A stretch of DNA of 64,000 nt from Rhodospirillaceae bacterium (lineage in GTDB: Bacteria; Pseudomonadota; Alphaproteobacteria; GCA-2746255), in the NCBI GenBank assembly GCA_002746255.1, contig NVWO01000007.1, positions 2,404-66,403 of the forward strand, in the 5' to 3' direction. The position numbers and the translations under genes are program-made. Shown here one piece after another: positions 21,512 to 35,740 of the stretch. The notes beneath the pieces were generated by a model. The model was given only the letters and a program-made list of their open reading frames with translations. It had not been told where the DNA came from and made no database searches. Numbering within the stretch: the first letter of the stretch is position 1; each line of letters opens with the position of its first letter.

Positions 21512-21538
21512 ATATAGCCGGGTGAAGGGGCCGTAAGA

Positions 21539-22132
21539 TTAATGCGCGTGCCCGTCCGCGTCATGGCTCTGGTTGTGGGGGGCTTTCTTCTGGTTCGTAT
21601 GGGCGGGGGCTTCGTCATTTGTCTCGATTGTGGGTAGGGACTGGACCCCAAGGCCGTGGCGGAAAACCAGATTGCCGCCCTTGAAGCCGGTGATGGCAAG
21701 CATGCCGAGCCCAACGACAAGAACAGCAAGAAAGGCGGGGGCGACGCGCCGTTCTTGCCGATGCATCCATGCGGCCCACAGTGCCAGACCCCACCAGACA
21801 AGCGCAGTTGGCACGGCCCAGTTTCGATGGTTGGTCATTGCCCCGTGGCTTACTTCGTCATGGGCGACCGTGCCATAGGCATAAAAACCGGCGCCGATTG
21901 TAAGGATCGTAAAAAAAGCACCAAGCCAAAGGTTCCAGTAAGCCGCAATTTGCAGCGATCCGGCCCAGCGTTTTCCGGAGAAGGCGGCGCTTGCGAGAAA
22001 AAACAACCCTGAGGTTCCAAAGAGGGCGATTGTGAAATGGACGAAAATTGGGTGCCAGTTGGGCAAAATTTCGATCACGAATTTCTCCTGCGTCCTTTTT
22101 TCTTTGTATTTTGGCAGCATAGCCTCTCTCAT
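21539..22132 (-). CDS. membrane protein, DUF2231-like (4 TM helices)
   Basis: Hydrophobic segments IFVHFTIALFGTSGLFFL etc. Start uncertain: ATG at 22132 or 22147, or GTG at 22079 with an AGGAGA RBS. Confidence 0.5.
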   Translation of the reverse strand: MREAMLPKYKEKRTQEKFVIEILPNWHPIFVHFTIALFGTSGLFFLASAAFSGKRWAGSLQIAAYWNLWLGAFFTILTIGAGFYAYGTVAHDEVSHGAMTNHRNWAVPTALVWWGLALWAAWMHRQERRVAPAFLAVLVVGLGMLAITGFKGGNLVFRHGLGVQSLPTIETNDEAPAHTNQKKAPHNQSHDADGHAH

Positions 22133-22156
22133 AATGGTCTTACCCATTTTATGTAG

Positions 22157-23371
22157 ATGAAGACAGGTTCCATGGTCGATTTCACGCTTTCTCCGGAAAT
22201 TCGCGATTTTCAGAAACGCATCCACGCCTTTGTTGCCGATCGGATTTTGCCCCTTGAATCGGATCCGAGTGCCTATGACGACCATGAAAACATCGCACCC
22301 GAACGGCTGGAGGGCTTGCGCACGGCGGCAAAACGCGAAGGCCTCTGGGCGCTGCAAATGCCGAAATCGCGTGGCGGCCAGGGCCTTGGCGTCGTTGGCA
22401 TGGCGATCGCTTATGAGGAAATGGGGCGATCAATCTTCGGGCCCGTCGTCTTCAACGCCGCAGCGCCTGATGACGGCAATATGCTTTTGCTGAACCGCGT
22501 CGGCACGGAGGCGCAAAAGGACCGTTGGCTGCAACCGATCATCGATGGCGATGTCCGGTCCGCCTTTGCGATGACGGAACCGATGCCGGGTTCAGGCTCG
22601 GACCCGGCCGCCATGCGGACGACGGCGACGAAAACGGGAAAGGAATGGATCGTTCATGGGGAAAAATGGTTCACGACAGGGGCCATGGGGGCCAGGCATT
22701 TTATCCTTGTGGCGCGCACGTCGGACAATCCAAGACGGGGCTTGAGCGCCTTTCTCTTTGATAGTGATCAGCCGGGCTGGGAAGTGACGCGCCGCACGCC
22801 GATCATGGGGCCGGAGGAACATGGCGGCCATTGCGAACTTCGCTTTGACGGCCTTGCGATCCCGGACGCGAACCGGCTGCTTGAAATTGGTGACGGTCTG
22901 AAGGTCACGCAGATCCGCCTTGGCACGGCACGGCTGACGCACTGCATGCGCTGGCTGGGGATGGCCAAGCGGGCGCTGGAAATTGCCGGCGACTACATCT
23001 GCGAGCGCGAGAGCTTTGGAACAAAACTTGCCGACCACGAAGGCGTCCAATGGATGATGGGCGAGGCGGCGAAGGAAATCGCCGTCGGTCGGCTGCTCAC
23101 CCTGCACGCAGCCTGGAAGCTGGATCAGGGCGATTTTGCCCGCAAGGAAGTTGCGATGGCCAAGATTCAGGTGGCGGATACCCTGCACAAGGCGGTCGAT
23201 ACGGCGATGCAGCTTTGTGGGGCGCGTGGCTATTCAAAGGATATGCCGCTTGAGTGGATGTACCGCTATGCCCGACAGGCGCGTCTCGTCGATGGCGCGT
23301 CCGAGGTCCACAAGATGGTTTTGGCACGCTTTTTGTTGAAAGAAGGCGCGGATTTCTGGTCGTGGGAGTGA
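22157..23371 (+). CDS. acyl-CoA dehydrogenase family protein
   Basis: 404 aa, ACAD N/M/C domains. Confidence 0.75.
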   Translation: MKTGSMVDFTLSPEIRDFQKRIHAFVADRILPLESDPSAYDDHENIAPERLEGLRTAAKREGLWALQMPKSRGGQGLGVVGMAIAYEEMGRSIFGPVVFNAAAPDDGNMLLLNRVGTEAQKDRWLQPIIDGDVRSAFAMTEPMPGSGSDPAAMRTTATKTGKEWIVHGEKWFTTGAMGARHFILVARTSDNPRRGLSAFLFDSDQPGWEVTRRTPIMGPEEHGGHCELRFDGLAIPDANRLLEIGDGLKVTQIRLGTARLTHCMRWLGMAKRALEIAGDYICERESFGTKLADHEGVQWMMGEAAKEIAVGRLLTLHAAWKLDQGDFARKEVAMAKIQVADTLHKAVDTAMQLCGARGYSKDMPLEWMYRYARQARLVDGASEVHKMVLARFLLKEGADFWSWE

Positions 23372-24399
23372 TCGAGCCCGGTTTGCGCACCCGCCTGGAG
23401 AATTTTATCGCCGAGGCCACCAGCGCAAAATCGGTGGCCCTGCTTGCGTTGGAGCCTCTTTCCGGGGGCGCCGTTCAGGAAAACTGGCGCCTTGATGTTG
23501 AATTTGCCGACGGACCCTATCGGGGAAAACGGGCGTGGGTGCTGCGTGCCACGGCACCGGCCGGCATTCCGAACAGCCATAGCCGGGCCGAGGAATTCGC
23601 TCTGCTTGAAACGGCCCACGGGGCGGGGGTGCTGGTGCCGAAGCCGCTTTTTTTGTGCAACGAGAAAAGCGTATTCGGGCGGGATTTTTTCATCATGGAA
23701 CGCCTTTCTGGCCTTGCTGCCGGCCACCGCCTGGTTCGCGATGAAAACCTGGACGGCGAGGGGCTGTTGCGGCACCTCGGCACCGAACTTGGGCACATTC
23801 ACGGCATCCGCCCACCACCATGCCAAGCGCTTGGGTTTCTCGATCTGCCGGAAGTGTCGCCGGCCCTTGAAGCGGTCCGTCGCCTGCGGGCCCAAATTGA
23901 GGCCCATCCACAGCCGCACCCGGTTTTTGAATGGGGCTTACGCTGGCTTGAACAACACGCGCCGGAAGCTCAGGCCGTGGTTCTTTGCCACCGCGACTTC
24001 CGTACCGGCAATTACCTTGTCGAAGCGGGTAAACTTACCGGCCTGCTCGATTGGGAATTCGCCGGTTGGGGGGACCCGATGGAGGATGTGGGCTGGTTCT
24101 GCGCAAAATGTTGGCGTTTTGGGGCCAATGCCCGCGAGGCAGGCGGGATCGGCTCGCGCGAGGCTTTTTATCGGGCCTATGAAGAGGCCTCCGGCCTTTT
24201 GATTGTGCCGCCTTCCGTTCATTATTGGGAGGTCATGGCGCATTTGCGTTGGGGGGTCATCGCGGTTCAACAATGCGGCCGGCATCTGAGTGGCAAGCGT
24301 CCTTCGCTGGAACTTGCGTTGACCGGTCGGCTTGTGGCTGAAATGGAGCTTGAGATTCTTGCCCTTATCGAACGGGCGGATCGGGGAGAAGAGGCCTGA
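23368..24399 (+). CDS. phosphotransferase family protein (APH/choline-kinase-like)
   Basis: HRDFRTGNYLV catalytic loop and DWEFAGWGDP. GTG start overlaps the ACAD stop (GTGA); the track ORF extends to 23254. Confidence 0.65.
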   Translation: MIEPGLRTRLENFIAEATSAKSVALLALEPLSGGAVQENWRLDVEFADGPYRGKRAWVLRATAPAGIPNSHSRAEEFALLETAHGAGVLVPKPLFLCNEKSVFGRDFFIMERLSGLAAGHRLVRDENLDGEGLLRHLGTELGHIHGIRPPPCQALGFLDLPEVSPALEAVRRLRAQIEAHPQPHPVFEWGLRWLEQHAPEAQAVVLCHRDFRTGNYLVEAGKLTGLLDWEFAGWGDPMEDVGWFCAKCWRFGANAREAGGIGSREAFYRAYEEASGLLIVPPSVHYWEVMAHLRWGVIAVQQCGRHLSGKRPSLELALTGRLVAEMELEILALIERADRGEEA

Positions 24400-24821
24400 T
24401 GCAGGATCGCCCGACGACGTCGGAACTTCTAAAAGCGGCGCGCGACGCCTTTGTCCAAGACCTGCTGCCTGAAATTACGGGTGAGAAGCGCTATGTGGCG
24501 CTGATGGTGGCTAATGCGCTTGCGATCCTTGGCCGCGACCTTGAAAGTGATGCGGCGTTTCTTCAAAAAGAATATAAGCGTCTTCAAGGACTTCTCGATG
24601 TTTCCTTATCTGAAACCGAAGATTTAGGCGGGCTTCGGGCCAAGGTCGAAACCCTCAACCGCCAGTTGGTGGCGCAAATTCGCGCCGGCGCCTTCGACGA
24701 ACCAGAGGCGGCCTGTGCGCGCCTGCGCACGCATCTTCACGCCACCACTGCTGAGAAGCTTGCCACCAGCAATCCGAAGGCTTTGCGGAAGCAGAACGAC
24801 GTGCGTAGACCTTGGCGGTAA
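24399..24821 (+). CDS. hypothetical protein (small helical protein co-occurring with the ACAD/phosphotransferase pair)
   Basis: ATGA overlap with the upstream gene; 140 aa. Confidence 0.45.
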   Translation: MQDRPTTSELLKAARDAFVQDLLPEITGEKRYVALMVANALAILGRDLESDAAFLQKEYKRLQGLLDVSLSETEDLGGLRAKVETLNRQLVAQIRAGAFDEPEAACARLRTHLHATTAEKLATSNPKALRKQNDVRRPWR

Positions 24822-24883
24822 AAATTGACTAGCCCGGCCACTCTTCTAGAATAAAAAGCGAATTTCTTTCAGGGGGGAATGTC

Positions 24884-26032
24884 ATGTTGAACACCAATCT
24901 TCAGATTATCCTCGCTCAAAATCCGGTCGGTAAGTTCAGCGGCAAAGATTTCGAAATCCGTAAGGCAGCTGTTCCACGTCCGAAGAAGGGGCAGTTTCTT
25001 GTCCGCAACCTTTACCTTTCCCTGGATCCGGCAAACCGTCTTTGGGCGTCCCCCTTTGCCAGCTATACGCCGCCGGTTGGGCTTGGCGAGGTGATGCGCG
25101 GCTTTACGGTCAGCGAAGTCATTGAATCAAAACATCCAAAATTCAAGCCAGGCGACATCGTCCAGGGGATGGACGGTTGGCAGGAATATGCCATTTCGAA
25201 CGGGGTCAATTACAACGAGAAAGGCAAGGTCGATACCTGGAACCTGAAGGCCGTCGTCAAGGCCGGTCTGCCCATTTCGACGGGGCTTAGCGTTCTTGGC
25301 ACGACCGGGATGGCAGCCTATGTAGGGGTCATCAAAACCGGCCAGCCGAAACGCGGCGAAACGGTGCTGATCTCCGGCGCTGCGGGGGCGACGGGCTCCA
25401 TCGCTGGCCAGATCGCGAAAATCAAGGGCTGCCGTGTCGTCGGCATCGCCGGTTCCGATGCAAAATGCAAAATACTTCGCAAGGAATTCGGCTTTGACGC
25501 GACGATCAACTACAAAACCCAGAATCTGGACAAGGCCATCGCCAAGACCTGCCCGAAAGGCATCGATATCTATTTCGATAACGTTGGCGGCGATACGCTG
25601 AACATTGCGCTGACCCACATCAACGATCACGCGCGCGTTGTTATTTGTGGAGCAATTTCCCAATACACGACGTTGGAAAAAGGCATCCAGGGGCCATCAA
25701 ATTACGGCTATTTGCTGTTCAAGCGGGCGCGCATGGAAGGCTTTATCGTTCTCGATCATTACGTCAAGGATCGGGGAAAAATGGAGGCGGACTTAATCCG
25801 ATGGCTCAAGGCGGGGAAGATCCACTACCGCGACGAGGTCGTGAGCAGCCTGAAAAACGCGCCGAAGGTTATCAATCGCCTTTACGATGGGCGGAACATG
25901 GGCAAGCTTACGGTCAAGATTGGAAAAGAGCCGAAGATGCTTGGCCGTGCAACGCCGGCGCGCAAACCTTCCAAAGTAAAACGCAAAGCCAGCACGCCAA
26001 AACGTAAAGTCACCAAAGCAAAACGTCGCTAG
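24884..26032 (+). CDS. NADP-dependent oxidoreductase (MDR superfamily, YncB/CurA/LTB4-dehydrogenase-like) with a 35-aa Lys/Arg/Pro-rich C-terminal tail
   Basis: Nucleotide-binding GAAGATGS. Tail GKEPKMLGRATPARKPSKVKRKASTPKRKVTKAKRR. Confidence 0.75.
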   Translation: MLNTNLQIILAQNPVGKFSGKDFEIRKAAVPRPKKGQFLVRNLYLSLDPANRLWASPFASYTPPVGLGEVMRGFTVSEVIESKHPKFKPGDIVQGMDGWQEYAISNGVNYNEKGKVDTWNLKAVVKAGLPISTGLSVLGTTGMAAYVGVIKTGQPKRGETVLISGAAGATGSIAGQIAKIKGCRVVGIAGSDAKCKILRKEFGFDATINYKTQNLDKAIAKTCPKGIDIYFDNVGGDTLNIALTHINDHARVVICGAISQYTTLEKGIQGPSNYGYLLFKRARMEGFIVLDHYVKDRGKMEADLIRWLKAGKIHYRDEVVSSLKNAPKVINRLYDGRNMGKLTVKIGKEPKMLGRATPARKPSKVKRKASTPKRKVTKAKRR

Positions 26033-26061
26033 GCGGCGGTCTTTTTTTCTTTTTGTATTTC

Positions 26062-26089
26062 GGCCGGGGAGGAATGCCTCCCCGGCCGG
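26062..26089 (+). terminator. hairpin GGCCGGGGAGG-AATG-CCTCCCCGGCC (11-bp perfect stem) after the oxidoreductase gene; the downstream U-tract is only moderate
   Basis: Seen in sequence. Confidence 0.45.
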
Positions 26090-26133
26090 TTCTTTATCAA
26101 TTTAAAAACCGCGTCCTTCACATATTTGCGCGA

Positions 26134-27834
26134 CTAGAAAACGGGGGTTTCGCGATAGGTTCCCCAAAGCTCCCGCAAGGTTTCCACGATATCGCCCATG
26201 GAAGCACCAGCTTTCACAAGCTTAACTGTGATCGGCATGATGTTTTTGTCCGGGTCCTTGGCGACTTCGACGAGCTCTTTCAACAGGCTCTGAACCTTGT
26301 TCTCGTCGCGTTCGTCCCGCACTTTTTTCAAGCCTGCGATCTGCCGGTCCGTGGTGGTGTGATCGTGGGGATGCAGTTCCACGTCGAAGACTTCGTCTTT
26401 CTCGACGAATTTGTTTACCCCGATCAGCGGGTACTCGCCGCTTGCCTTTTTCATCGCCGTCTCGTAAGCGAAGTCGGCGATGTGGCGCTGGAACCAGCCT
26501 TCTTCGATCAGCTTGATCGTGCCGCCCTTTTCATCAATCTCGTCGAGAATCTTGAAGATTTCCTTCTCGTACTCGGTCGTCAGGTGTTCGACGAAATACG
26601 AACCGCCCAGTGGATCGATGACCTGGGTAACGTTCGTTTCTTCGGCAATGACTTGCTGGGTGCGAAGGGCGATCTTCATCGCTGCTTCCGTCGGGATGGC
26701 AAAGGCTTCGTCCATGCCGTTCGTGTGCAGGCTCTGCGCGCCGCCAAGGACGGCGGAAAGGGCCTGAACGGTCGTGCGCATGATGTTGACCTTGTATTGG
26801 GGCTTGGTCAACGTCGCTGCGGCCGTCTGGCAATGGAAACGAAGCCGCATGGATGCCGGATTTTTAGCACCAAAGCGTTCTTTCATGATCTTTGCATAGA
26901 CCCGACGTGCTGCCCGGAACTTTGCGATTTCCTCGAAGAAATCACGCTGGCATACAAAGAAGAAGGCGAGCCGGGGTGCGAATACGTCAACATCCAGGCC
27001 GGTTTTTATAACTTCTTCCACATAGGTAATCGTGTTCGCCATCGTGAACGCAACTTCATGTACCGGAGACGAACCAGCTTCCGAAACGTGGTAGCCGGAA
27101 ATATTGATCGGATTGAAGCGCTTCATGTTCTCGGCGCAGAAGGTGATGCAGTCGCGGACGATGCGGACAGAAGGTGTGATCGGATAGATCCATTCCTTCT
27201 GTGCCATATATTCTTTCAGAATATCCGCCTGAACCGTTCCGGAAAGCTTGTGTGGGTCGTATCCCCGCTTTTGCCCAAGGGCGTAATACATGGCCAGCAT
27301 GATCCACGCCGAAGGATTGATGGTCATGGAGACGGAGATGTTTTCAAGGTCGATGTCGGCGTAAAGCGCCTCCATATCGGCCAGGGTATCGACGGCAACG
27401 CCTTCACGACCGACTTCACCGATGCTCATCGGGTGGTCTGAGTCATATCCCATAAGGGTTGGCATATCGAAATCGGTAGAGATACCGGTCTGGCCCTGCT
27501 CGATCAGGTATTTGAACCGCTTGTTCGTGTCCTCGCCGGTGCCGAAACCTGCAATCTGGCGCATGGTCCAGTTGCGGCCACGGTACATGGTCGGATAGGG
27601 GCCACGGGTGAAGGGATATTGGCCAGGCAGGCCAATGTCCTCAAGCGGCGTTTCTGCCACGTCGAGTGCTGTATAGACGCGTTTTACCGGGAAGTTGCCG
27701 AAGGTGGTGAATTGTTCCTTCTGCTCCGGTTGACGGTTGAGGAAGGTGGCGAGTTCTTTCTTCTCCCATTTCTCAAATTGCTGTTCAAGCCGTTCGAGAG
27801 CCATGTTGTCCAGGGCCTGCTTTTCGTTAATCAT
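26134..27834 (-). CDS. hcmA: B12-dependent acyl-CoA mutase large (substrate-binding TIM-barrel) subunit, HcmA-like (candidate 2-hydroxyisobutyryl-CoA mutase)
   Basis: MCM-family motifs [10 protein letters not shown] and [14 protein letters not shown]. Specificity positions: Ile94 (MCM Tyr89 / ICM Phe80 site), Asp121 (HcmA Asp117 site), Gln212 (MCM Arg207 site). No B12-binding domain in this ORF. Confidence 0.7.
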
Positions 27835-27837
27835 TTC

Positions 27838-28857
27838 CTATTTCTCCATCCGGATTTCGGCCAGAAGGTCTTGTGCCGCTGCATATGGATTGGTTTCGTG
27901 AGCCATCATCTGTTCGATTAGTGTCGAGACTTTCCCATCCCGGTGTTCCTGAAATTTGTCACGCAGGATTTCCTCGGCCGTTTTTAGCATCCGCCGTTCG
28001 GCGATGCGCTTTTTTTGTTTGTCGAGCTCTCCGGACGTTCCGAGGTACTCCCAGTGCTGGTCGATTGCCTTAAGGAGTTCCGAAACACCCTCAAGCTTCA
28101 GGGCGCTTGTCGCGATGACCGGGACCGGCCAGTTGGTCGCGCCGGAAAGGCTTAGACCAAGGGTCATCATTCCTTTTAGATCGGTGATTGTCCGGTTTGC
28201 ATCCGGGCGGTCACATTTGCTGACGACGTGGATGTCGGCAATTTCTAGAATGCCGGCTTTGATCGCCTGAATGTCGTCGCCAAGGCCGGGGGCGGAAACG
28301 ACGATTGTCGTGTGGGCCGCTTGGACGATGTCCACCTCATCCTGACCGACCCCCACCGTTTCGATCAGGATCATATCGAAGCCGGCGGCGTCCAGAACGT
28401 CCACGGCATCCAGGCTGGCACGTGCCAGGCCGCCAAGCGAACCTCGCGTTGCCATGCTGCGAATAAAAATTCCCTTATCCCCGGCAAGTTCGTTCATGCG
28501 GATACGGTCACCCAGAATGGCCCCGCCGGAAAACGGGCTGGAAGGGTCAATCGCGACGACGGCAACCTTACGGCCTGTTTCGCGGATCATGGCGATCAGC
28601 TTGCCCATCAGGGTGGATTTGCCGCTGCCGGGCACGCCGGTGATGCCGACGATATGCGCGCGACCCGTGCGTTTGTAAATTTCGGCAAGGGCCGGGCGGC
28701 ATTCGTTTTTTCCGGCTTCGGCACGCGTGATCATCCGCGCGATGGCGCCAATATCGGCAGCAACGACACGGTCAATCAGGTCAAGAGAAGGAATATTTCT
28801 CACGGCGTCAGGCTCCGTCATTTTTTTTAAGCATGTCCTGGAAGACGGCACGGTCAT
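27838..28857 (-). CDS. MeaB/ArgK-family G-protein chaperone for B12 mutases (MeaH-like)
   Basis: P-loop GVPGSGKST; GDRIRM and SKCDRPD switch motifs. Start may be the internal Met at about 28821. Confidence 0.8.
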   Translation of the reverse strand: MTVPSSRTCLKKMTEPDAVRNIPSLDLIDRVVAADIGAIARMITRAEAGKNECRPALAEIYKRTGRAHIVGITGVPGSGKSTLMGKLIAMIRETGRKVAVVAIDPSSPFSGGAILGDRIRMNELAGDKGIFIRSMATRGSLGGLARASLDAVDVLDAAGFDMILIETVGVGQDEVDIVQAAHTTIVVSAPGLGDDIQAIKAGILEIADIHVVSKCDRPDANRTITDLKGMMTLGLSLSGATNWPVPVIATSALKLEGVSELLKAIDQHWEYLGTSGELDKQKKRIAERRMLKTAEEILRDKFQEHRDGKVSTLIEQMMAHETNPYAAAQDLLAEIRMEK

Positions 28858-30241
28858 CGATGACGCGGCGTGCCTTGAAGTCTGTCCGGGGAATGGAGTT
28901 CAGCGGTACGATCTCAACCTTTGTACGGACACCAAGCACCCGTTGCAGGTCCTTGCTGATCGTGCTTTGGAATGCGTTCAGGGCGTCGTCACCTTTCGTG
29001 TAGGTTTCCTTCACGGCCTCCACGCGGACCAGCAATTCGTCCATGGTTCCTTCGCGCGTGATGATGATGCGATGTTCCCCGCCATAGCCGTCGACTTTGT
29101 TCAGGACGGCGTCGATTTCACTTGGGTAGATGTTTTCACCACGGACCGTGAATTGATCGTCGATACGCCCAAAAATTCCGTTTGGAAGGTGTGGATAGGT
29201 ACGGCCGCAAGGGGCGGGGCCGTCATAGCGCCACTCGGTCAGGTCGCCGGAGAGCAGGCGGATCATCGGTTGTGAGGTGCGTTCGAGATGGGTGTAGACG
29301 GGCGTTCCCTTCTGACCATAGGGCACACGCCGAAAATTTGATGGGTCGCAGACTTCTGTGTAGACGATGTCCTGCCACAACAGCATGCCTTCCGGCGTTC
29401 CCTGTGAACCGGCGCAGTTCATCCAGGGCGCCATCTCGGCCATGGAACCGGAATCGTAAACTTCGGCGTTATAAAACTCCTTGATCCGGTCACGCACACC
29501 CGGGATCGATGCGCCAGGTTCGCCCGAGAAGAACAGGCATTTGAGGCCGAAATCTTTCGGCTCCAAGCCTTCCTTGATGGCGGTCTCGGCCAAATGAATG
29601 GCAAAGGACGGGGTGCCATAGAAGGCAGCGGGCTTCATCTGGCTGAGCCATTGTGCGGCGCGTGCGCTCATACCCGGGGCACCGGCGCCAAAAGGGAAGG
29701 CCTTGGCGTGCAGGCGTTCTGCACCGGCCAGCGCACCCCAGGAACCCAGGTAGAGGCTGAAAATTGCGGCGACGAAGATCATATCGCCCGGGCGCATGCC
29801 CATGCCGTACATGATGCGCGCATGGGCGTTGGCAATGGCGTCCCAGTCGTTGCGGCCGATGGCAAAAACGGTGGGCGTTCCGGTGGTTCCGGACGTGCCG
29901 TGGATGTGATGAATTTCCGATTCAGGAATGCAGAGATAATCGCCGAACCTCGGTACATTGGTCTGGGCCGCGCGCAAATCCTTCTTCGTGATGACCGGGA
30001 CCTTGTCCTCAAAATCCTCAAGGGACTTCAGGTGGTCCGGATGAAAGCCAGCTTTGTCCCATATCCGTTTGTAGAAGGGGGATTTTTCATAGGCATAACG
30101 CGTGACTTCCTGCAGGCGCCCGAGAATAGCTTTTTCCCGATCCCCCGGGTCCATCGTCTCCCGCTTTGTAAACCAGTAGGGAGAAGAGGGTTCCGGCAGG
30201 TAATTGGGGTCAAATTTTGGTGGAAACGACCAATTTTCCAT
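28808..30241 (-). CDS. PaaK-like (phenylacetate-CoA ligase family) AMP-forming acyl-CoA ligase, candidate 2-hydroxyisobutyrate-CoA ligase
   Basis: 477 aa; HGTSGTTGTPT adenylation motif; PaaK-family architecture; embedded in the mutase operon. Confidence 0.65.
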   Translation of the reverse strand: MENWSFPPKFDPNYLPEPSSPYWFTKRETMDPGDREKAILGRLQEVTRYAYEKSPFYKRIWDKAGFHPDHLKSLEDFEDKVPVITKKDLRAAQTNVPRFGDYLCIPESEIHHIHGTSGTTGTPTVFAIGRNDWDAIANAHARIMYGMGMRPGDMIFVAAIFSLYLGSWGALAGAERLHAKAFPFGAGAPGMSARAAQWLSQMKPAAFYGTPSFAIHLAETAIKEGLEPKDFGLKCLFFSGEPGASIPGVRDRIKEFYNAEVYDSGSMAEMAPWMNCAGSQGTPEGMLLWQDIVYTEVCDPSNFRRVPYGQKGTPVYTHLERTSQPMIRLLSGDLTEWRYDGPAPCGRTYPHLPNGIFGRIDDQFTVRGENIYPSEIDAVLNKVDGYGGEHRIIITREGTMDELLVRVEAVKETYTKGDDALNAFQSTISKDLQRVLGVRTKVEIVPLNSIPRTDFKARRVIDDRAVFQDMLKKNDGA

Positions 30242-30273
30242 CGTGCTTTCTCCTCCCGTCTCCGTTTTAGCTG

Positions 30274-30690
30274 TTAGCGTGCGCCGCGTTCGGCAACAAG
30301 GCGTCGCATCGTTTCAATTATTTCTTGCGGGGGTGTGTCCTGCAGCAGAATCTGTTTCACGCCAATTTTATGCAGCTCTTCGACTTCGTCGTCTGGAATG
30401 ACGCCGCCGCCGGTGACGATGATGTCTTCGGCGTTGCTTTCTTTCAGCAGTTCGATGATGCGTGGAAACACCGTCATATGCGCGCCCGAAAGAATGCTGA
30501 CGCCAAGGATGTCCACGTCTTCCTGAACGGCGGCGCGAACAACGTCCTCCGGCGTACGGTGAAGGCCTGTATAGATGACATCCATTCCGGCATCGCGAAG
30601 GGCACGTGCCACGACTTTGACGCCGCGGTCGTGACCGTCCAGCCCGACTTTCGCGATCAGCACGCGAATGATGTCTGAATTCTTACTCAT
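30274..30690 (-). CDS. hcmB: acyl-CoA mutase small B12-binding subunit (HcmB-like)
   Basis: 138 aa; DxHxxG cobalamin-binding motif in LDGHDRGVKVV. Confidence 0.8.
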   Translation of the reverse strand: MSKNSDIIRVLIAKVGLDGHDRGVKVVARALRDAGMDVIYTGLHRTPEDVVRAAVQEDVDILGVSILSGAHMTVFPRIIELLKESNAEDIIVTGGGVIPDDEVEELHKIGVKQILLQDTPPQEIIETMRRLVAERGAR

Positions 30691-30702
30691 AATAACGACT
30701 CC

Positions 30703-31425
30703 CTAATTTCCTAATGTGTTTTTTATCTCAAGGTCGACCACCTTGTCGATAGGGGCGGCCTTGGCATGGGTCTGTTTGTTCAACTCGCGTTGTAGAGACG
30801 TGGAGGCAGCTTCGGCGTGCTCGCCGGCGAGGGTCTCGGCTTTTTCCGCATCACCTTCGGCGATGGCGTCAAGAATGGCGTCATGCTCCATCCAGACGTT
30901 TTTACTATAGCCATCGATACGCAGCACGACACTCATGATGCGCCGGAAGTGGTTCAAATAGGGCTGCATCGTATCGGCAAGGATGGCATTGCCGGAAAGT
31001 TCGTAGATCAACCGGTGGAAGTCCATGTCCGTTGCGATCAATTTTGAAATTGATGCGTTCGCGGCCGTCTTTTGGTCCAGGGCCGCGGTGCGTTTTGCAC
31101 GCGCAATGTCGCGCGACGCGGCGTTTGTAGCGGCCTGTCTTGCGGCAAGTCGGTCGAGGGCGCCGCGAAATTCGTAAAGGGAACGGACAAAACCTTCTTC
31201 AAGCGGCGCAACCATCAACCCGCGTCGGCCAGCTTTGCAGACAAATCCCTGGCTTTTCAAAAGCATCAGCGCCTGGCCAACCGGTTGCCGGGAGACGTTG
31301 AGCTGCTCGGCAATGCCTTCCTGAGCAAGCCGCTCACCGGGGGCTAGCTGGCCATCGCAGATGGCATCCAGGATGGTGTTGTAGACCTGCTCCATCATGT
31401 GGGGCTGAACGTGGAGTTTACGCAA
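30703..31425 (-). CDS. GntR-family transcriptional regulator (FadR/FCD subfamily)
   Basis: N-terminal winged HTH ...ERLAQEGIAEQLNVSRQPVGQAL plus C-terminal FCD-type domain. Confidence 0.75.
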   Translation of the reverse strand: MRKLHVQPHMMEQVYNTILDAICDGQLAPGERLAQEGIAEQLNVSRQPVGQALMLLKSQGFVCKAGRRGLMVAPLEEGFVRSLYEFRGALDRLAARQAATNAASRDIARAKRTAALDQKTAANASISKLIATDMDFHRLIYELSGNAILADTMQPYLNHFRRIMSVVLRIDGYSKNVWMEHDAILDAIAEGDAEKAETLAGEHAEAASTSLQRELNKQTHAKAAPIDKVVDLEIKNTLGN

Positions 31426-31517
31426 GTGGCCGCTCCCGATTATTGCATACAGTGTTCAGTAATTTGAATTTTTCAGCGACACAAGAACTATTATTAAAAG
31501 TGTTGCCTTTCAGTGCA

Positions 31518-33257
31518 TTAGCTATTTTTTTTAGGGGGGTTCCGCCAGTCGCGTTCGGCGTTGTCCCACGCTTCCAGCGGTTGCAAATCCGGCACCAGGG
31601 CAAGGCCGGCCTTGGCATCGCCCGAGACCGCCTCGCGGGTGACCCGCACGTCAAGGACGGCGGGTGCGTTTTCGAGGCAGCGCGCGAAGGCTTCGCCAAT
31701 ATCTTCCTCGCGCTCGACATGCTCGCCATGGGCGCCAAGCGCACGCGCAAGACCGGCATAATCGGAAAAGCGAAGTTCCGTGCCGACGATATTGCCGTCA
31801 TAGGTTTCGCGCTGGTCAAAGCATTCAATGTTCCATGCACCATTGTTGGCGATGACGAAAACAACCTTGGCGTCGTGGCGAACGGCGGTATCGACCTCGA
31901 TTGCATTGAAGCCAAAGGCGCCGTCGCCGGTGACAACAATGACCTGGCGGTCGGGAAGGGCGAGGGCGGCGGCGATTCCAAAAGGAACGCCCACGCCCAG
32001 GCAGCCAAGCGCGCCGGGGTCCATATAGGGGCCTGCGGAAAGGGCGACGCGGGCGAAACTCAGGATATCGCCGCCATCGGCGATGGTGACGGCATCGGGT
32101 GCGATCCGTTCCTGCAACACACTCAACAGGCGATTGGGATGGATATGGCCGTCGCTTCCGGGGGGCGTCTTCCTAAGTTTTTTAATAAATTTTTCTCTTT
32201 TTTTCGCGTGGGTTGCGCGTATTTCCTGAACCCACTTCTTATCTACGGCGGGCTTGCGATTGCCGGCTGCCGCGACGATGGCTTTCAGGGCCAGCGCCGG
32301 CGTGGCGACGATTTCTGGGCAGCCGCGCCGATTGTCGCGAAGTTCCTCTGCATGTTCGGCAAGGCGGACGAAGCGGGCGTTTTTGAAAATAGCTGGCGAG
32401 CCATAAGCAAGCTGAAAATCGAGCTTGCGGCCGATGGTCAGGACGACATCGGCTTCTTCCATCACCTGGCCGCGCAGCGAGGAAACGACGGCGGGGTGGC
32501 TGTCTGGAACAAGCCCCCGGCTTTCAGACGTGTCGAGGTAAAGGGCGTCCAGCGCATCAAGCATCGCGCGAAGTTCGGGCCCGGCACCGCGTGCGCCACG
32601 CCCGGTAATCACCAGCGGTCGTTTGGCATTCCACAGAATTTCGACCGCCGCGGCGATGGTTTTTGGGTCGGGCTGCAATTGCACCTTGGCCCGTGGTGCC
32701 AAATGTTCGGCAAAAACCTGGTGCCGGGGCAGGCGTGCGCGCAGGAGATCCGTCGGAAAATCAATGTAGGCCGGGCCTGGTACATTGCCTTCGCCGCTGG
32801 CGCGCGCAAAGGCCTCGTCAAGGGCGGGCACGACATGGGCCGCTTCGCGCACGGTCCGGGTGTAGCGGGTGATGGAGCGAAGCAAATCCGTGTGCACAAG
32901 ATCCTGCAATGCCCCCATCTGTTCCTGGGGGCATGGCGGCACGCCGGAGATGACGACGATCGGGGCCCGGGCGACATCGGCGTTGACGATGCCGGTGATC
33001 GCGTTCGTGACGCCGGGTCCGGCGGTGGCAAGCACAACTGCGATGTTGCCTGTCAGTTCGGCATGGGCATGGGCCATGTGGGCGGCGGCACGTTCGTCAC
33101 GGACGTCAATGATGCGAATGCCGGCGCGGGCGACCCGGTCCCAGATGGGCATGATATGGCCGCCGCAAAGCCCGAAAACACGGTCGATGCCGCGTGCGGT
33201 AAGGAATTCGGCAATAAGGCCGGCGATCGTTTCCGATGTCTCTGCATTCTGAGCCAT
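31518..33257 (-). CDS. thiamine diphosphate-dependent enzyme of the 2-hydroxyacyl-CoA lyase / oxalyl-CoA decarboxylase family
   Basis: GLVPDSHP and GDGAFGFNAIEVDT...NNGAW resemble the Oxc/HACL GLLPDNHP and GDSAFGFSGMELET...NNGGIY more than acetolactate synthase. Start taken at MAQNAETSE; the track ORF, with an alternative start, extends to 33323. Confidence 0.65.
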   Translation of the reverse strand: MAQNAETSETIAGLIAEFLTARGIDRVFGLCGGHIMPIWDRVARAGIRIIDVRDERAAAHMAHAHAELTGNIAVVLATAGPGVTNAITGIVNADVARAPIVVISGVPPCPQEQMGALQDLVHTDLLRSITRYTRTVREAAHVVPALDEAFARASGEGNVPGPAYIDFPTDLLRARLPRHQVFAEHLAPRAKVQLQPDPKTIAAAVEILWNAKRPLVITGRGARGAGPELRAMLDALDALYLDTSESRGLVPDSHPAVVSSLRGQVMEEADVVLTIGRKLDFQLAYGSPAIFKNARFVRLAEHAEELRDNRRGCPEIVATPALALKAIVAAAGNRKPAVDKKWVQEIRATHAKKREKFIKKLRKTPPGSDGHIHPNRLLSVLQERIAPDAVTIADGGDILSFARVALSAGPYMDPGALGCLGVGVPFGIAAALALPDRQVIVVTGDGAFGFNAIEVDTAVRHDAKVVFVIANNGAWNIECFDQRETYDGNIVGTELRFSDYAGLARALGAHGEHVEREEDIGEAFARCLENAPAVLDVRVTREAVSGDAKAGLALVPDLQPLEAWDNAERDWRNPPKKNS

Positions 33258-33508
33258 TGTGCGATATCTCCACCTGTAGACAAGCAGTAACTGCTTGAAA
33301 TAAAAGTATAATATTTCACGCACTTTGCATGTCGTATGCAGTCTTTGGAGTGTACGCGTTTGCTTGGCGCATCACAATGTCTGTATGCCGCTCTTGCGAT
33401 CCACCATCTGTAAAATCCCCTGCCAGACGCCCACAAAGGGATGCTAATATCGATCCCATTGTGGGCGTTGGCCTGTCCGAAATCTGTCCTGTTGAAGAGG
33501 TGTTTTCC

Positions 33509-34015
33509 TTGCGTTGCATAGTAAGAACTTCATTTATTCTATTGATTTTTATGCTTCTTTTTTCTGCTAACGCCAGAGCTGACTTTGAAGGCGGCCTTGT
33601 GGCTTATCAGGAGAATGATTTCAAAAAGGCGCTTGAAGAATTCACACCCTTGGCCAAGAACGGCCACGCGATGGCTCAGTTTTACCTCGGCCTTCTTTAT
33701 GGTTTTGGCGAGGGGGTCGAAAAGGATCTGGTTACGGCGGTGCGCTGGTGGCGGCTGGCGGCCGAGCAGGGCAACACCGCCGCCCAGTCCAATCTTGGCT
33801 TCATGTACAAATATGGCAACGGTGTGTCCCCGGATCCGGTGCAGGCCTATATGTGGTCAAAAGTGGCGTCCATGGGCGGCGCGGCGTTTGCCGATGAGAA
33901 TCTTATCACCTTCGCCGAGGGCATGACTTCGGATGCGATCGCGCGTGCCGAACGGCTTGCCATGGACTGGCTGGATGCTCATCCTGCCGCCGCCGGGTCC
34001 AGGGAAACCCCTTAG
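33509..34015 (+). CDS. Sel1-repeat (TPR-like) exported protein
   Basis: Signal peptide RTSFILLIFMLLFSANARA with AT-rich codons; Sel1 repeats AQFYLGLLYGFGEGVEKD, AQSNLGFMYKYGNGV. Start is approximate (TTG or GTG). Confidence 0.6.
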   Translation: MRCIVRTSFILLIFMLLFSANARADFEGGLVAYQENDFKKALEEFTPLAKNGHAMAQFYLGLLYGFGEGVEKDLVTAVRWWRLAAEQGNTAAQSNLGFMYKYGNGVSPDPVQAYMWSKVASMGGAAFADENLITFAEGMTSDAIARAERLAMDWLDAHPAAAGSRETP

Positions 34016-34133
34016 GCGTTTCTGCGCGAAGGTTCATGGCGTTCGCCACCAAAACCCTGAAATGATCGATTTCATTGAGGCGCGCATGTTTTAGGCCATT
34101 GACGCGATCAAATATTTATATAACATATTTCTT

Positions 34134-34505
34134 ATGGAAAGAATTGGTTATATAAGCGCAGAATCAAGTCTCGACGCCATTTTTTCGGCGCTGGCCGACC
34201 CGACGCGGCGGGCAATCCTGTTACGGCTTGTGAAAGGTCAGGCTTCCGTCAATGAGATCGCCGCGCCATTTGAAATAAGTCAACCGGCGGTTTCAAGGCA
34301 TCTGAAGGTGCTGGAACAGGCGGGGTTGATCGAGCGAGATGTTGACGAACAGCGCCGCCCGGCGAGGCTGAAAGCTGAAACGATGGCAACCGCTGTCGAC
34401 TGGCTTGCCGAATTTAGAGCTTTTTGGGGGATGTCTTTTGATCAATTAGACGACGTCTTGATGCAGATGAAACTAGCCAAAGCGAAGGAAACAGACCATG
34501 AGTGA
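34134..34505 (+). CDS. ArsR/SmtB-family transcriptional regulator
   Basis: LADPTRRAILLRL...NEIAAPFEISQPAVSRHLKVLEQAGLI. Confidence 0.8.
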   Translation: MERIGYISAESSLDAIFSALADPTRRAILLRLVKGQASVNEIAAPFEISQPAVSRHLKVLEQAGLIERDVDEQRRPARLKAETMATAVDWLAEFRAFWGMSFDQLDDVLMQMKLAKAKETDHE

Positions 34506-34999
34506 ATTACCCGAATACGTACTTGACCGGGTGTTTGATGCGCCCCGCGAAGTGGTCTGGCGCGCCTGGACGGATCCTGAATGGCTCTCGCGTTGGTATG
34601 GCCCCGGCGCAGAAACGATCATCCATAAATTTGATTTAAAACCCGGTGGCATATGGCTTAACGAAATGAAGTGGGGGGGACAATTCTAACTTTCAGAAAG
34701 TCGTTTTTCAGGACGTTTTGCAACCCTCAAGGCTGGTTTGGCACCATTATTCTTTGACAGATTCGGATTGGACTGTTGTTGTGAATCCAAGAATGCCGGA
34801 TTAGCCCCGGTTGCTGCTGACAACGGTGACTTTTGAGGACATGGGCGACAAAACAAATGTGTGCCTCTCTCAGGTGCCGATTGAGGCCACAGACGCCGAG
34901 ATCGCCTGTTTCACCAAGATGATGGCTGGCATGGATCAGGGTTGGGGCAGCGGTTACGCAATCATGGATACGCTGTTCGCAGAGTTGCGGGCAGGATAA
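34498..34999 (+). pseudogene. disrupted SRPBCC (Aha1/BPI-like) domain gene, the usual partner of ArsR
   Basis: N-terminal fragment (34498-34689) and C-terminal fragment (34811-34999) are both SRPBCC-like. The middle part is recoverable in another frame (NSNFQKVVFQDVLQPSRLVWHHYSLTDSDWTVVVNPRMPD) after a poly-G run at about 34672-34680, and carries an in-frame TAG at about 34800. Confidence 0.6.
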
Positions 35000-35625: not shown

Positions 35626-35740
35626 GATTATTGATCGGGGACGGTCGCCAGGGTATGTAGCTGGCGGCACTTACGGTTCCCGAGAAGGGGTCGAGGTATA
35701 GGACCTGACCGAAGGCCGGTCAAGCAAGGGGGAGGCCTTT

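What the first reader, a model, noticed from the sequence alone, without database searches (positions are those of the whole stretch)
26134..30690. Split B12 acyl-CoA mutase operon whose specificity residues match 2-hydroxyisobutyryl-CoA mutase (HcmA/HcmB + MeaH + PaaK-like ligase)
The large subunit, aligned by eye on the conserved blocks FTRGPY..MY..W..RQ-x-AGF and ILKE(F/Y)M-x-(R/Q), has Ile94 at the MCM Tyr89 / ICM Phe80 position (RQIAGF). It has Asp121 exactly 27 residues later, matching the reported HcmA Ile90/Asp117 spacing (STDFD versus MCM SVAFD). It has Gln212 instead of the carboxylate-binding MCM Arg207 (MAQKEW versus MVRNTY). That triad is the published signature of 2-hydroxyisobutyryl-CoA / 3-hydroxybutyryl-CoA mutase. 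The operon also encodes a MeaB-type G-protein, a 138-aa DxHxxG B12-binding subunit, and a 477-aa phenylacetate-CoA-ligase-family enzyme. That is the same gene set as the Aquincola/Kyrpidia hcm clusters, where the ligase activates 2-hydroxyisobutyrate. Here the host is an alphaproteobacterium and the operon is under a GntR regulator.
Basis: partly seen in the sequence, partly recalled or inferred. Interest (0 to 1): 0.7.

Follow-up and report, generated by a model that had tools for sequence, protein, structure and literature searches.

The report
2-Hydroxyisobutyrate operon: mutase plus lyase

Summary
The 566-aa large subunit aligns without gaps to crystallised Aquincola HcmA (PDB 4R3U, about 76% identity). 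Its Ile94/Asp121/Gln212 fall on HcmA Ile90/Asp117/Gln208. The small subunit is about 70% identical to HcmB. The ligase is about 70% identical to the crystallised 2-HIBA-CoA ligase (6HDW) and only 27% to a PaaK-like ligase from a pivalyl-type mutase cluster. The order hcmB-hcl-meaH-hcmA recurs in about 60 species genomes from many phyla. It also matches the Methylibium PM1 and Xanthobacter Py2 (alphaproteobacterial) plasmids, both with an adjacent GntR gene. The literature already says a GntR gene is usual there. An alphaproteobacterial host and GntR control are therefore not new.

It is an orthologue of the "actinobacterial" 2-hydroxyisobutyryl-CoA lyase (NCBIfam NF058623, 858 bits; about 53% identity to 7PT1). 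The catalytic residues and the C-terminal lid are conserved. An ATAC-N-GTAT palindrome lies upstream of gntR/hcmB in 12 loci and upstream of the lyase in the three closest relatives. Degenerate copies sit at both promoters in the window. The cluster therefore probably offers two fates for 2-HIBA-CoA.

Verdict: new member of a known kind, low-to-moderate interest.

The parts
26134..27834 (-). hcmA, the large (substrate-binding) subunit of 2-hydroxyisobutyryl-CoA mutase, 566 aa, with Ile94/Asp121/Gln212
   Evidence: PDB 4R3U_A gives E=4.6e-295 with an ungapped alignment and about 76% identity. Pfam MM_CoA_mutase scores 689 bits. The triad positions were confirmed. It falls in the HcmA clade of the NJ tree.
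27838..28803 (-). meaH, a MeaB-type G-protein chaperone of the mutase. The longest ORF runs to 28857; the likely start is the GTG at 28803, giving 321 aa.
   Evidence: TIGR00750 MeaB scores 336.6 bits against a cut-off of 240.75. Pfam MeaB scores 308 bits. PDB MeaB 8DPB/2QM7 give E about 1e-52. The gene is called as 321 aa on identical metagenome contigs.
28808..30241 (-). hcl, 2-hydroxyisobutyrate-CoA ligase (PaaK-like fold), 477 aa
   Evidence: PDB 6HDW (2-hydroxyisobutyryl-CoA synthetase) scores 782 bits over residues 1-470, against 221 bits for PaaK 2Y27. Identity to 6HDW is about 70%. It is below the PaaK equivalog cut-off, 252 against 646. It is 70% identical to Xaut_5019 and PM1 hcl, and 27% to Xaut_5040.
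30274..30690 (-). hcmB, the small adenosylcobalamin-binding subunit, 138 aa, with DGHDRG at residues 18-23
   Evidence: PDB 4R3U_C (HcmB) gives E=1.8e-57 and about 70% identity. TIGR00640 and Pfam B12-binding both match. The motif position was confirmed.
30703..31425 (-). GntR/FadR-type regulator (winged helix plus FCD domain), 240 aa, TTG start, 12 nt upstream of hcmB
   Evidence: Pfam GntR and FCD both match. It is called as 240 aa on identical contigs. Orthologues stand next to hcmB in many loci. The literature says a GntR gene is usually present.
31445..31457 (.). Candidate GntR operator, a degenerate ATAC-N-GTAT palindrome (GCATACAGTGTTC). It lies 19 nt upstream of the gntR start and overlaps the -10 of a promoter-like site at 31468-31439.
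   Evidence: The exact motif sits at the same 19-nt spacing in L001-L003.
31518..33257 (-). Thiamine-diphosphate-dependent 2-hydroxyisobutyryl-CoA lyase (AcHACL type), 579 aa. The longest ORF runs to 33323.
   Evidence: NCBIfam NF058623 2-hydroxyacyl-CoA lyase scores 858 bits against a cut-off of 600. PDB 7PT1 scores 630 bits over the full length, against 207 or less for other HACL/OXC enzymes. Identity to 7PT1 is about 53%. E65, L127, I492, E493 and the C-terminal lid are conserved. A 100% identical 579-aa protein is in NCBI as 'MAG: Rhodospirillaceae bacterium'.
33327..33339 (.). Second candidate operator (GCATGTCGTATGC), upstream of the lyase and overlapping the -35 of a promoter-like site at 33335-33308
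   Evidence: The exact palindrome lies upstream of the lyase in L001-L003.
26060..26089 (.). GC-rich 13-bp hairpin between the convergent curA-like gene and hcmA. It is the likely 3' end of the operon.
   Evidence: Terminator scan. The T-tract is on the + strand only.

Best explanation
This is a chromosomal six-gene, co-directional cluster for using 2-hydroxyisobutyrate (2-HIBA), ordered lyase, gntR, hcmB, hcl, meaH, hcmA. The host is an uncultured Rhodospirillaceae-like alphaproteobacterium.

Proposed pathway:
- HCL activates free 2-HIBA to 2-hydroxyisobutyryl-CoA, using ATP and CoA.
- The adenosylcobalamin-dependent mutase HcmAB is loaded and protected by the G-protein MeaH. It shifts the thioester carbon by a radical 1,2-rearrangement and yields (S)-3-hydroxybutyryl-CoA.
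- That product enters central metabolism through acetoacetyl-CoA.
- The lyase encoded just upstream offers a second, B12-independent fate for the same thioester: cleavage to acetone and formyl-CoA.
- The FCD-type GntR protein probably represses both transcription units by binding an ATAC-N-GTAT palindrome at each promoter. It would be released by 2-HIBA or its CoA ester.

What is shown here: orthology of each protein to a crystallised, characterised enzyme; conservation of the specificity and catalytic residues; conservation of gene order; and the placement of the palindrome.

What is inferred: substrate, stereochemistry, direction of flux, relative use of the two branches, and regulator-operator binding.
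For: Orthology to characterised enzymes:
- HcmA: 983 bits, ungapped, about 76% identity to 4R3U_A.
- HcmB: about 70% identity to 4R3U_C.
- HCL: 782 bits and about 70% identity to 6HDW.
- MeaH: above the MeaB equivalog cut-off.

Specificity triad:
- Ile94/Asp121/Gln212 correspond to HcmA 90/117/208.
- Among the mutase homologues aligned across all fetched loci, 67 carry I/D/Q and two carry V/D/Q, all at 63% identity or more.
- Wherever the flank is available, these I/D/Q and V/D/Q homologues have hcl beside them.
- Homologues at 52% identity or less carry F/A/Q or Y/A/R and lack hcl.
- The NJ tree groups the window protein with the PM1 and Xanthobacter HcmA.

Synteny: the gene order is identical in the PM1 and Py2 plasmids, each with an adjacent GntR gene.

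Lyase:
- NF058623 scores 858 bits against a cut-off of 600.
- 7PT1 scores 630 bits over the full length.
- E65, L127, I492, E493 and the lid are conserved.
- The lyase-gntR-hcmB-hcl-meaH-hcmA order is conserved in L001-L003.

Operator:
- All 16 exact ATAC-N-GTAT sites in 1.14 Mb of related loci lie within about 110 nt upstream of gntR, hcmB or the lyase.
- Two of the three 2-mismatch sites in the 64-kb window lie at the two promoters, at the homologous spacing.

Literature: the HCL-mutase-MeaH-GntR organisation and the lyase reaction are described in PMC7176365 and PMC8760513.
Against: - No biochemical or growth data exist for this organism, which is known only from metagenomes.
- No adenosyltransferase, 3-hydroxybutyryl-CoA dehydrogenase, thiolase, or acetone or formate enzymes are encoded in the 64-kb window. 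The PM1 and ELW1 clusters do carry some of these. Downstream steps must therefore be encoded elsewhere.
- The operator copies in the window are degenerate, with 2 mismatches each. The count of such sites in the window is not by itself significant: 3 observed against 1.08 expected, and 12 of 100 shuffles reach 3.
- The lyase's closest relatives outside this clade sit with a different acyl-CoA ligase, so its preferred substrate could be another short 2-hydroxyacyl-CoA.
- The literature meaning of the triad (Yaneva 2012; Kurteva-Yaneva 2015) is recalled from memory. Those papers were not held in the library.
Confidence: 0.85

Rival explanations
1. Acetone plus C1 assimilation. The lyase would run in the synthase direction, condensing acetone with formyl-CoA to give 2-hydroxyisobutyryl-CoA. 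HcmAB would then isomerise that to 3-hydroxybutyryl-CoA. This would be an ATP-sparing, carboxylase-free route for acetone, analogous to the pathway proposed for Desulfococcus biacutus but built from an AcHACL-type enzyme and an HcmAB-type mutase.
For: - Both reactions are reversible, and the combination of lyase and mutase is discussed for D. biacutus (PMC7176365; PMC7888143).
- The lyase and the mutase operon are adjacent, co-directional and appear to share an operator.
- Lyase-mutase linkage recurs in PM1, L006 and ELW1.
Against: - A dedicated 2-HIBA-CoA ligase sits inside the operon. The cited paper uses the absence of HCL as the mark of the acetone pathway.
- No formyl-CoA-generating enzyme and no acetone-related gene is in the window.
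- Most hcm clusters lack the lyase.
Confidence: 0.08
2. The lyase is a functionally unrelated neighbour. It would act on another short 2-hydroxyacyl-CoA, for example one supplied by a ligase encoded elsewhere. Only gntR through hcmA would form the 2-HIBA unit.
For: - Its 61-64% identical relatives in Bradyrhizobium, Zoogloeaceae and a betaproteobacterium are linked to a different AMP-binding ligase and to PQQ or aldehyde dehydrogenases, not to hcm.
- A 92-nt gap with its own promoter-like site separates it from gntR.
- The operator copy at the lyase promoter is degenerate.
Against: - The substrate-size residues L127 and I492 and the lid that restrict AcHACL to C4/C5 acyl groups are conserved.
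- The exact palindrome stands upstream of both the lyase and gntR in L001-L003.
- The six-gene order is kept down to 77% lyase identity.
- Lyase-hcm linkage arose in three distant lineages.
Confidence: 0.12
3. The mutase has a different specificity: isobutyryl-, pivalyl-, ethylmalonyl- or methylmalonyl-CoA, or the (R)-specific RCM type.
For: - The generic annotations read 'methylmalonyl-CoA mutase family protein'.
- The same set of gene families surrounds a different mutase at Xaut_5040-5045.
Against: - It is 76% identical to HcmA, about 50% to F/A/Q and Y/A/R mutases, and 35% to Xaut_5043.
- The triad is I/D/Q, not F/A/Q, Y/A/R or L/L/N.
- It falls far below the MCM and IcmF equivalog cut-offs, 578 against 876 and 340 against 1500.
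- Asp at the 117 position is retained. From the literature as I recall it, this residue sets (S)-specificity.
Confidence: 0.03

Closest known systems
hcm cluster of Aquincola tertiaricarbonis L108 and Methylibium petroleiphilum PM1 (HcmAB, MeaH, HCL; PDB 4R3U, 6HDW)
   Same: The four genes are the same and in the same order, hcmB-hcl-meaH-hcmA. Identity is about 76%, 70% and 70% to the crystallised HcmA, HcmB and HCL. The I/D/Q triad is identical. A GntR/FCD regulator is adjacent. PM1 also has an AcHACL-like TPP enzyme nearby.
   Different: - Here gntR is co-directional and only 12 nt upstream of hcmB. In PM1 it is divergent.
- The lyase is immediately upstream of gntR. In PM1 it is downstream of hcmA.
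- There is no adenosyltransferase, gamma-carbonic-anhydrase-like gene or 3-hydroxybutyryl-CoA dehydrogenase in the cluster.
- The setting is chromosomal, among housekeeping genes, not a catabolic megaplasmid.
Xanthobacter autotrophicus Py2 pXAUT01 cluster Xaut_5017-5021
   Same: The host is an alphaproteobacterium. The gene order is identical, and a GntR gene is adjacent. HcmA is 77% identical and HCL 70% identical.
   Different: The Xanthobacter cluster is plasmid-borne, its GntR gene is divergent, and no lyase lies within 6 kb.
Actinobacterial 2-hydroxyacyl-CoA lyase pathway (Actinomycetospora chiangmaiensis AcHACL, PDB 7PT1; lyase-HCL cluster)
   Same: The lyase is a full-length orthologue with about 53% identity. 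E65, L127, I492, E493 and the C-terminal lid are conserved. It is associated with HCL and a GntR regulator.
   Different: In A. chiangmaiensis the lyase replaces the mutase, and the genome has no mutase. It is also clustered with mpdBC dehydrogenases. Here the lyase coexists with HcmAB and no diol or aldehyde dehydrogenases are present.
Mycolicibacterium sp. ELW1 ibc cluster 2 (plasmid pELW1-1)
   Same: hcmB-hcl-meaB-hcmA, an FCD regulator and a TPP lyase are all in one cluster. [quoted passage not shown]
   Different: - The host is an actinobacterium and the cluster is on a plasmid.
- The lyase lies about 4.5 kb from hcmA, with other genes in between.
- L127 is replaced by Met.
- The cluster also carries a thiolase, a 3-hydroxybutyryl-CoA dehydrogenase and cobalamin genes.
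Desulfococcus biacutus acetone pathway (TPP enzyme plus RcmAB-like mutase)
   Same: A TPP-dependent C-C enzyme and a 2-HIBA-CoA mutase are combined in one organism.
   Different: The TPP enzyme there is unrelated (22% identity to AcHACL). The mutase is RCM-like. There is no HCL, and the pathway runs from acetone towards 3-hydroxybutyryl-CoA.

Membership tests
2-hydroxyisobutyryl-CoA mutase HcmAB | Large subunit orthologous to characterised HcmA rather than to MCM, ICM or PCM | tested here: met
   983 bits against 4R3U_A, 438 or less against MCM and 253 against IcmF. It falls in the HcmA clade of the NJ tree. Identity is 75-77% to PM1 and Xaut HcmA, 35% to Xaut_5043 and about 50% to F/A/Q and Y/A/R mutases.
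2-hydroxyisobutyryl-CoA mutase HcmAB | Active-site triad Ile90 / Asp117 / Gln208 in HcmA numbering, replacing MCM Tyr89 / Ala / Arg207 | tested here: met
   Ile94/Asp121/Gln212 align without gaps to those positions of 4R3U_A. The triad tracks hcl linkage across the fetched loci. The meaning of the residues is recalled from Yaneva 2012 and Kurteva-Yaneva 2015, which were not held in the library.
2-hydroxyisobutyryl-CoA mutase HcmAB | Separate small B12-binding subunit with a DxHxxG base-off/His-on motif | tested here: met
   A 138-aa ORF with DGHDRG at residues 18-23. E=1.8e-57 against HcmB 4R3U_C.
2-hydroxyisobutyryl-CoA mutase HcmAB | Operon-like association with meaH (G-protein chaperone) and hcl | tested here: met
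   The genes are contiguous on one strand with gaps of 32 nt or less. The order is the same in about 60 loci.
2-hydroxyisobutyryl-CoA mutase HcmAB | Catalyses 2-HIBA-CoA to (S)-3-hydroxybutyryl-CoA with adenosylcobalamin | not testable with these tools
   This needs an enzyme assay.
2-HIBA-CoA ligase (HCL) | Orthology to characterised HCL, distinct from phenylacetate-CoA ligase PaaK | tested here: met
   782 bits against 6HDW and 221 against PaaK 2Y27. It falls below the PaaK equivalog cut-off, 252 against 646. It is 27% identical to the PaaK-like Xaut_5040.
AcHACL-type 2-hydroxyisobutyryl-CoA lyase | Scores above the curated cut-off of NCBIfam NF058623 | tested here: met
   858.1 bits against a cut-off of 600, covering profile positions 4-574 of 575.
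AcHACL-type 2-hydroxyisobutyryl-CoA lyase | Catalytic Glu493 on a short helix, size-limiting Leu127 and Ile492, cofactor Glu65, and an extended C-terminal lid (residues 556-590) | tested here: met
   All four residues are conserved, and the lid segment aligns through AcHACL residue 583. The features are defined in PMC8760513.
AcHACL-type 2-hydroxyisobutyryl-CoA lyase | [quoted passage not shown] | not testable with these tools
   This needs an enzyme assay.
GntR/FadR-subfamily regulator of hcm clusters | N-terminal GntR winged helix plus C-terminal FCD domain, encoded next to hcmB | tested here: met
   Pfam GntR scores 49 bits and FCD 94 bits. It is 44-53% identical to the GntR genes next to other hcm clusters.
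GntR/FadR-subfamily regulator of hcm clusters | Binds a palindromic operator at the regulated promoters | tested here: inconclusive
   ATAC-N-GTAT is found only upstream of gntR, hcmB or the lyase in related loci, 16 of 16 sites. The window copies have 2 mismatches each, and their number alone is not significant. No binding data exist.
Isobutyryl-, pivalyl- or methylmalonyl-CoA mutase | Phe/Ala/Gln (ICM), Tyr/Ala/Arg (MCM) or the PCM-type residues at the three positions, and equivalog-level scores | tested here: not met
   The triad is I/D/Q. The MCM equivalog scores 578 against a cut-off of 876, and IcmF scores 340 against 1500.
RcmAB, the (R)-specific mutase of Kyrpidia | Membership of the RCM lineage, described as only distantly related to HcmAB | not tested
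76% identity to HcmA makes RCM membership implausible.

The most novel reading that the evidence does not exclude
The tight, apparently co-regulated coupling of an AcHACL-type lyase with HcmAB in an aerobic, free-living alphaproteobacterium might not be redundancy. It could be a working bidirectional node. One reading is a cobalamin-independent bypass that lets the cell use 2-HIBA when B12 is scarce. The other is a carboxylase-free route that condenses acetone with formyl-CoA and isomerises the product to 3-hydroxybutyryl-CoA. On either reading, the 'actinobacterial' lyase family would be mainly a proteobacterial family with thousands of unannotated members.
Probability: 0.15. Interest if true: 0.6.

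Novelty: new member of a known kind. Interest (0 to 1): 0.3.

Why it matters
The mutase operon itself adds nothing new to what is known. It is one more orthologue of a pathway characterised since 2006-2015. That pathway has thousands of close homologues in public data, most labelled only 'methylmalonyl-CoA mutase family protein'.

Three by-products have modest value:

1. The I/D/Q triad together with hcl linkage is a clean rule for re-annotating such genes.
2. The lyase described as actinobacterial is abundant in Proteobacteria. In at least four lineages it is physically coupled to the mutase: this clade, a betaproteobacterial MAG, Methylibium PM1 and Mycolicibacterium ELW1. This suggests that a dual fate for 2-HIBA-CoA is selected for, perhaps because of B12 limitation.
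3. A conserved ATAC-N-GTAT palindrome is a testable operator for the uncharacterised GntR regulator of these clusters. It could serve as a 2-HIBA-responsive biosensor part for methacrylate-precursor engineering.

Tried and rejected
- **Primary papers on the HcmA triad and distribution.** I tried to read PMC4392272, PMC3346121, PMC1489616 and PMC4551191. None is held. PMC2847961 does not mention the residues. The literature meaning of the triad therefore rests on memory plus the direct alignment to the crystal-structure sequence.
- **Other literature searches.** A search for 'hcmA hcmB' gave only irrelevant hits. A search for a characterised hcm GntR repressor gave none.
- **Pathway partners in the window.** I looked for an adenosyltransferase, 3-hydroxybutyryl-CoA dehydrogenase, thiolase, acetone carboxylase or monooxygenase, formyl-CoA transferase and formate dehydrogenase. 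Only housekeeping genes turned up. PurU (20483-21511) is probably coincidental.
- **Regulatory RNA.** I looked for a cobalamin riboswitch or other RNA element in 20000-36000. Only two tRNAs were found.
- **Plasmid origin.** I considered this and rejected it. The flanks are valS, ilvD, argS, serS, secDF, tatC, the bio genes and PopZ.
- **The antisense ORF 31443-33290 (+, 615 aa).** It has no family hit and is rejected in favour of the lyase on the minus strand.
- **Gene content as evidence for HCM.** I rejected this because the Xaut_5040-5045 cluster has the same families.

Full report
**Observation**

The minus strand between 26134 and 30690 carries four contiguous ORFs:
- a 566-aa methylmalonyl-CoA-mutase-family large subunit;
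- a MeaB-type GTPase;
- a 477-aa PaaK-like ligase;
- a 138-aa B12-binding protein.

RQIAGF places Ile at residue 94, STDFD places Asp at 121, and MAQKEW places Gln at 212. DGHDRG (DxHxxG) lies at residues 18-23 of the small subunit.

HMMER aligns residues 14-566 to chain positions 21-573 of PDB 4R3U_A ('2-hydroxyisobutyryl-CoA mutase large subunit') without a single gap. That 584-residue chain has 11 extra residues at each end. Query 94/121/212 therefore equal native HcmA 90/117/208. In the same output, human MCM shows RQYAGF, SVAFD and MVRNTY at these places.

**Identity of the four proteins**

| Protein | Closest characterised match | Score or E-value | Identity | Next-best or contrast |
|---|---|---|---|---|
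| Large subunit | HcmA, 4R3U_A | 983 bits | about 76% | 438 bits or less for MCMs, 253 for IcmF |
| Small subunit | HcmB, 4R3U_C | E=1.8e-57 | about 70% | – |
| Ligase | 2-HIBA-CoA synthetase, 6HDW | 782 bits over residues 1-470 | about 70% | 221 bits for PaaK |
| GTPase | MeaB, TIGR00750 | 336.6 bits (cut-off 240.75) | – | – |

The identity percentages were counted from the HMMER match lines.

The curated NCBIfam equivalogs for other functions are all missed by wide margins. MCM scores 578 against 876, IcmF 340 against 1500, and PaaK 252 against 646.

A scan of one genome per species returned 80 loci. I located all cluster genes in them by tblastn and read the three diagnostic positions from the alignments.
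- 67 mutase homologues carry I/D/Q and two carry V/D/Q, all at 63% identity or more to the window protein.
- Wherever the flank is present, they have hcl next to them, nearly always in the order hcmB-hcl-meaH-hcmA.
- Homologues at 52% identity or less carry F/A/Q or Y/A/R and have no hcl.

An NJ tree on a MAFFT alignment places the window protein with its three closest MAG relatives. That group lies inside a clade that also holds Methylibium PM1 HcmA (75%) and Xanthobacter Xaut_5021 (77%). The F/A/Q group, a Y/A/R mutase and Xaut_5043 (35% identity, L/L/N) lie outside this clade. From memory, Xaut_5043 is the pivalyl-CoA mutase large subunit.

The ligase is 70% identical to the hcl genes of PM1 and Py2. 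It is only 27% identical to Xaut_5040, the PaaK-like ligase of the Xaut_5043 cluster.

That second Xanthobacter cluster contains the same set of families, under a TetR regulator: large subunit, small subunit, MeaB-like protein and PaaK-like ligase. The homology and the residues are.

**What is already known**

- A blastn search of plasmids found the window cluster collinear with the PM1 megaplasmid and with pXAUT01 of the alphaproteobacterium Xanthobacter autotrophicus Py2.
- Both carry a GntR gene next to hcmB.
- Rohwerder et al. 2020 (PMC7176365) state that hcl is in operon-like organisation with hcmAB or rcmAB and meaH. [quoted passage not shown] - A protein search returned 8000 hits, the cap for that search. 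The best 120 are all 77% identical or more, and most are labelled only as methylmalonyl-CoA mutase family.

The gene immediately upstream of gntR on the same strand is 31518-33257. Its longest ORF runs to 33323, and a 100% identical 579-aa protein is in NCBI as 'MAG: Rhodospirillaceae bacterium'.
- It scores 858 bits against NCBIfam NF058623 '2-hydroxyacyl-CoA lyase', whose cut-off is 600.
[quoted passage not shown] Other HACL/OXC structures score 207 or less.
- The features that PMC8760513 gives as characteristic are all conserved. These are cofactor Glu65, catalytic Glu493, size-limiting Leu127 and Ile492, and the extended C-terminal lid.

The six-gene order lyase-gntR-hcmB-hcl-meaH-hcmA is kept in the three closest genomes, L001-L003, where lyase identity is 77-83%. 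A lyase homologue is also linked to hcm in:
- a betaproteobacterial MAG, L006 (62% identity, divergent from hcmB);
- Methylibium PM1 (53% identity, two genes beyond hcmA);

Most hcm loci lack the lyase. The lyase family itself is large in Proteobacteria. More than 6500 hits reach E of 1e-80 or better, and the best are 61-65% identical. In the three examples inspected, those genes sit with a different AMP-binding ligase, a GntR/FCD gene and PQQ or aldehyde dehydrogenases.

**Regulation**

Comparing the regions upstream of gntR and of the lyase in L001-L003 exposed a palindrome, (G/T)(C/T)ATAC-N-GTAT.
- The core ATACNGTAT occurs 16 times in the 1.14 Mb of loci fetched at that point. It has no further matches in the 90 loci held later.
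- Every occurrence lies within about 110 nt upstream of gntR, hcmB or the lyase (coordinates compared).
- The 12 loci that carry it come from Alphaproteobacteria, Burkholderiales, Verrucomicrobia, Trueperaceae and Halofilum.

In the window the motif is degenerate: GCATACAGTGTTC at 31445-31457 and GCATGTCGTATGC at 33327-33339.
- These are two of only three sites in 64 kb within two mismatches of the consensus. The count alone is not significant: 1.08 expected, and 12 of 100 shuffles reach 3.
- Their placement is telling. The first lies 19 nt before the gntR start, exactly as in L001-L003. Each overlaps one of the three promoter-like sites found in 25900-33500.

I infer that one FCD-type repressor controls both units, but binding is untested. 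A GC-rich hairpin at 26060-26089 lies between hcmA and the convergent curA-like gene and probably ends the operon. No riboswitch or other Rfam element lies in 20000-36000 apart from two tRNAs.

**Context**

The rest of the window is chromosomal housekeeping. It includes valS, ilvD, argS, serS, secDF, tatC, bioB/A/D, cysK, metC, znuABC, xth and a PopZ-family protein.

This context, the MAG names of the nearest relatives and the NCBI label of the identical lyase support an uncultured Rhodospirillaceae-like alphaproteobacterium. No adenosyltransferase, 3-hydroxybutyryl-CoA dehydrogenase, thiolase, or acetone or formate gene is present in the window. The downstream steps must be encoded elsewhere.

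**Mechanism**

The steps below are inferred from orthology:
1. HCL adenylates 2-HIBA and forms 2-hydroxyisobutyryl-CoA.
2. HcmAB performs the radical 1,2-carbonyl shift to (S)-3-hydroxybutyryl-CoA. Cobalamin is bound base-off/His-on by HcmB, and cofactor loading is guarded by MeaH.
3. Asp at the 117 position is retained. From the literature as I recall it, this residue sets (S)-stereospecificity.
4. The lyase can alternatively cleave the same thioester to acetone and formyl-CoA without B12.

Which branch carries the flux, and whether the lyase ever runs in the condensing direction, cannot be decided from sequence. The presence of hcl argues for catabolism of free 2-HIBA rather than a Desulfococcus-like acetone pathway. 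PMC7176365 notes that the latter lacks HCL.

**Verdict**

The operon is a new member of a well-characterised kind. Its supposed distinguishing features (host class, GntR) are already documented.

The only elements of moderate interest are the tight coupling of an AcHACL-type lyase to the mutase operon and a predicted shared operator. The coupling is seen elsewhere but has scarcely been discussed. Interest is 0.3.

Noticed in passing
window 22157-26032 (+): Four genes converge on hcmA: an acyl-CoA dehydrogenase (22157-23371), an APH-family phosphotransferase (about 23254-24399), DUF6285 (24399-24821) and a CurA-like NADPH enone reductase (24884-26032). ACAD, APH and DUF6285 stay next to the hcm cluster in L001-L003 and on identical metagenome contigs. 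From memory, an ACAD plus APH-kinase pair resembles the ACAD10/11 and LvaA/LvaC modules for 4-hydroxyacyl-CoA. No link to 2-HIBA was shown.
   Followed up: partly
L086-L088 (Bradyrhizobium ontarionense, Zoogloeaceae MAG, betaproteobacterial MAG): The lyase described as 'actinobacterial' has thousands of 61-65% identical homologues in Proteobacteria, annotated only as acetolactate synthase or TPP-binding protein. In the three contexts inspected they sit with a different AMP-binding ligase, a GntR/FCD gene and PQQ or aldehyde dehydrogenases. This suggests an unannotated route from diol to 2-hydroxyacid to CoA ester to lyase.
   Followed up: partly
L089 12433-17871 (Xanthobacter Py2 pXAUT01, Xaut_5040-5045): A second acyl-CoA mutase cluster lies on the same plasmid as the Xanthobacter hcm genes. 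It has the same family set (large and small subunit, MeaB-like protein, PaaK-like ligase, plus PaaD) under a TetR regulator. Its large subunit has L/L/N at the triad positions and is 35% identical to the window HcmA.
   Followed up: partly
L066 1-1497 (Myxococcales MAG): This mutase large subunit is 67% identical to the window HcmA, as close as the I/D/Q-bearing Myxococcales proteins. Yet it has F/A/Q at the triad positions. The locus is cut at the contig end, so its neighbours are unknown. It may be a recent specificity switch.
   Followed up: no
L003 8001-9698 and 9721 onward; L038/L039 (one Halofilum contig): L003 carries two tandem full-length hcmA copies (85% and 84% identity, both I/D/Q). 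The Halofilum contig carries two complete hcm clusters about 17 kb apart.
   Followed up: no
window 33281-33297: A perfect 8-1-8 palindrome, CAAGCAGT-T-ACTGCTTG, lies in the lyase 5' leader between the promoter-like site and the start codon. It is not seen in L001-L003. It could be a second operator or an RNA hairpin.
   Followed up: no
window 6295-7683 (+): One 462-aa ORF matches the Zur repressor at residues 32-171 and the ZnuC ATPase at residues 206-445. It is either a zur-znuC fusion or two genes read in one frame by the longest-ORF rule.
   Followed up: no
window 35341-35413 and 35555-35625 (-): Two tRNA genes (Rfam RF00005, 62 and 64 bits) lie about 2 kb beyond the lyase. The ORF 35312-35701 (+) listed mechanically over them is probably spurious.
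   Followed up: no
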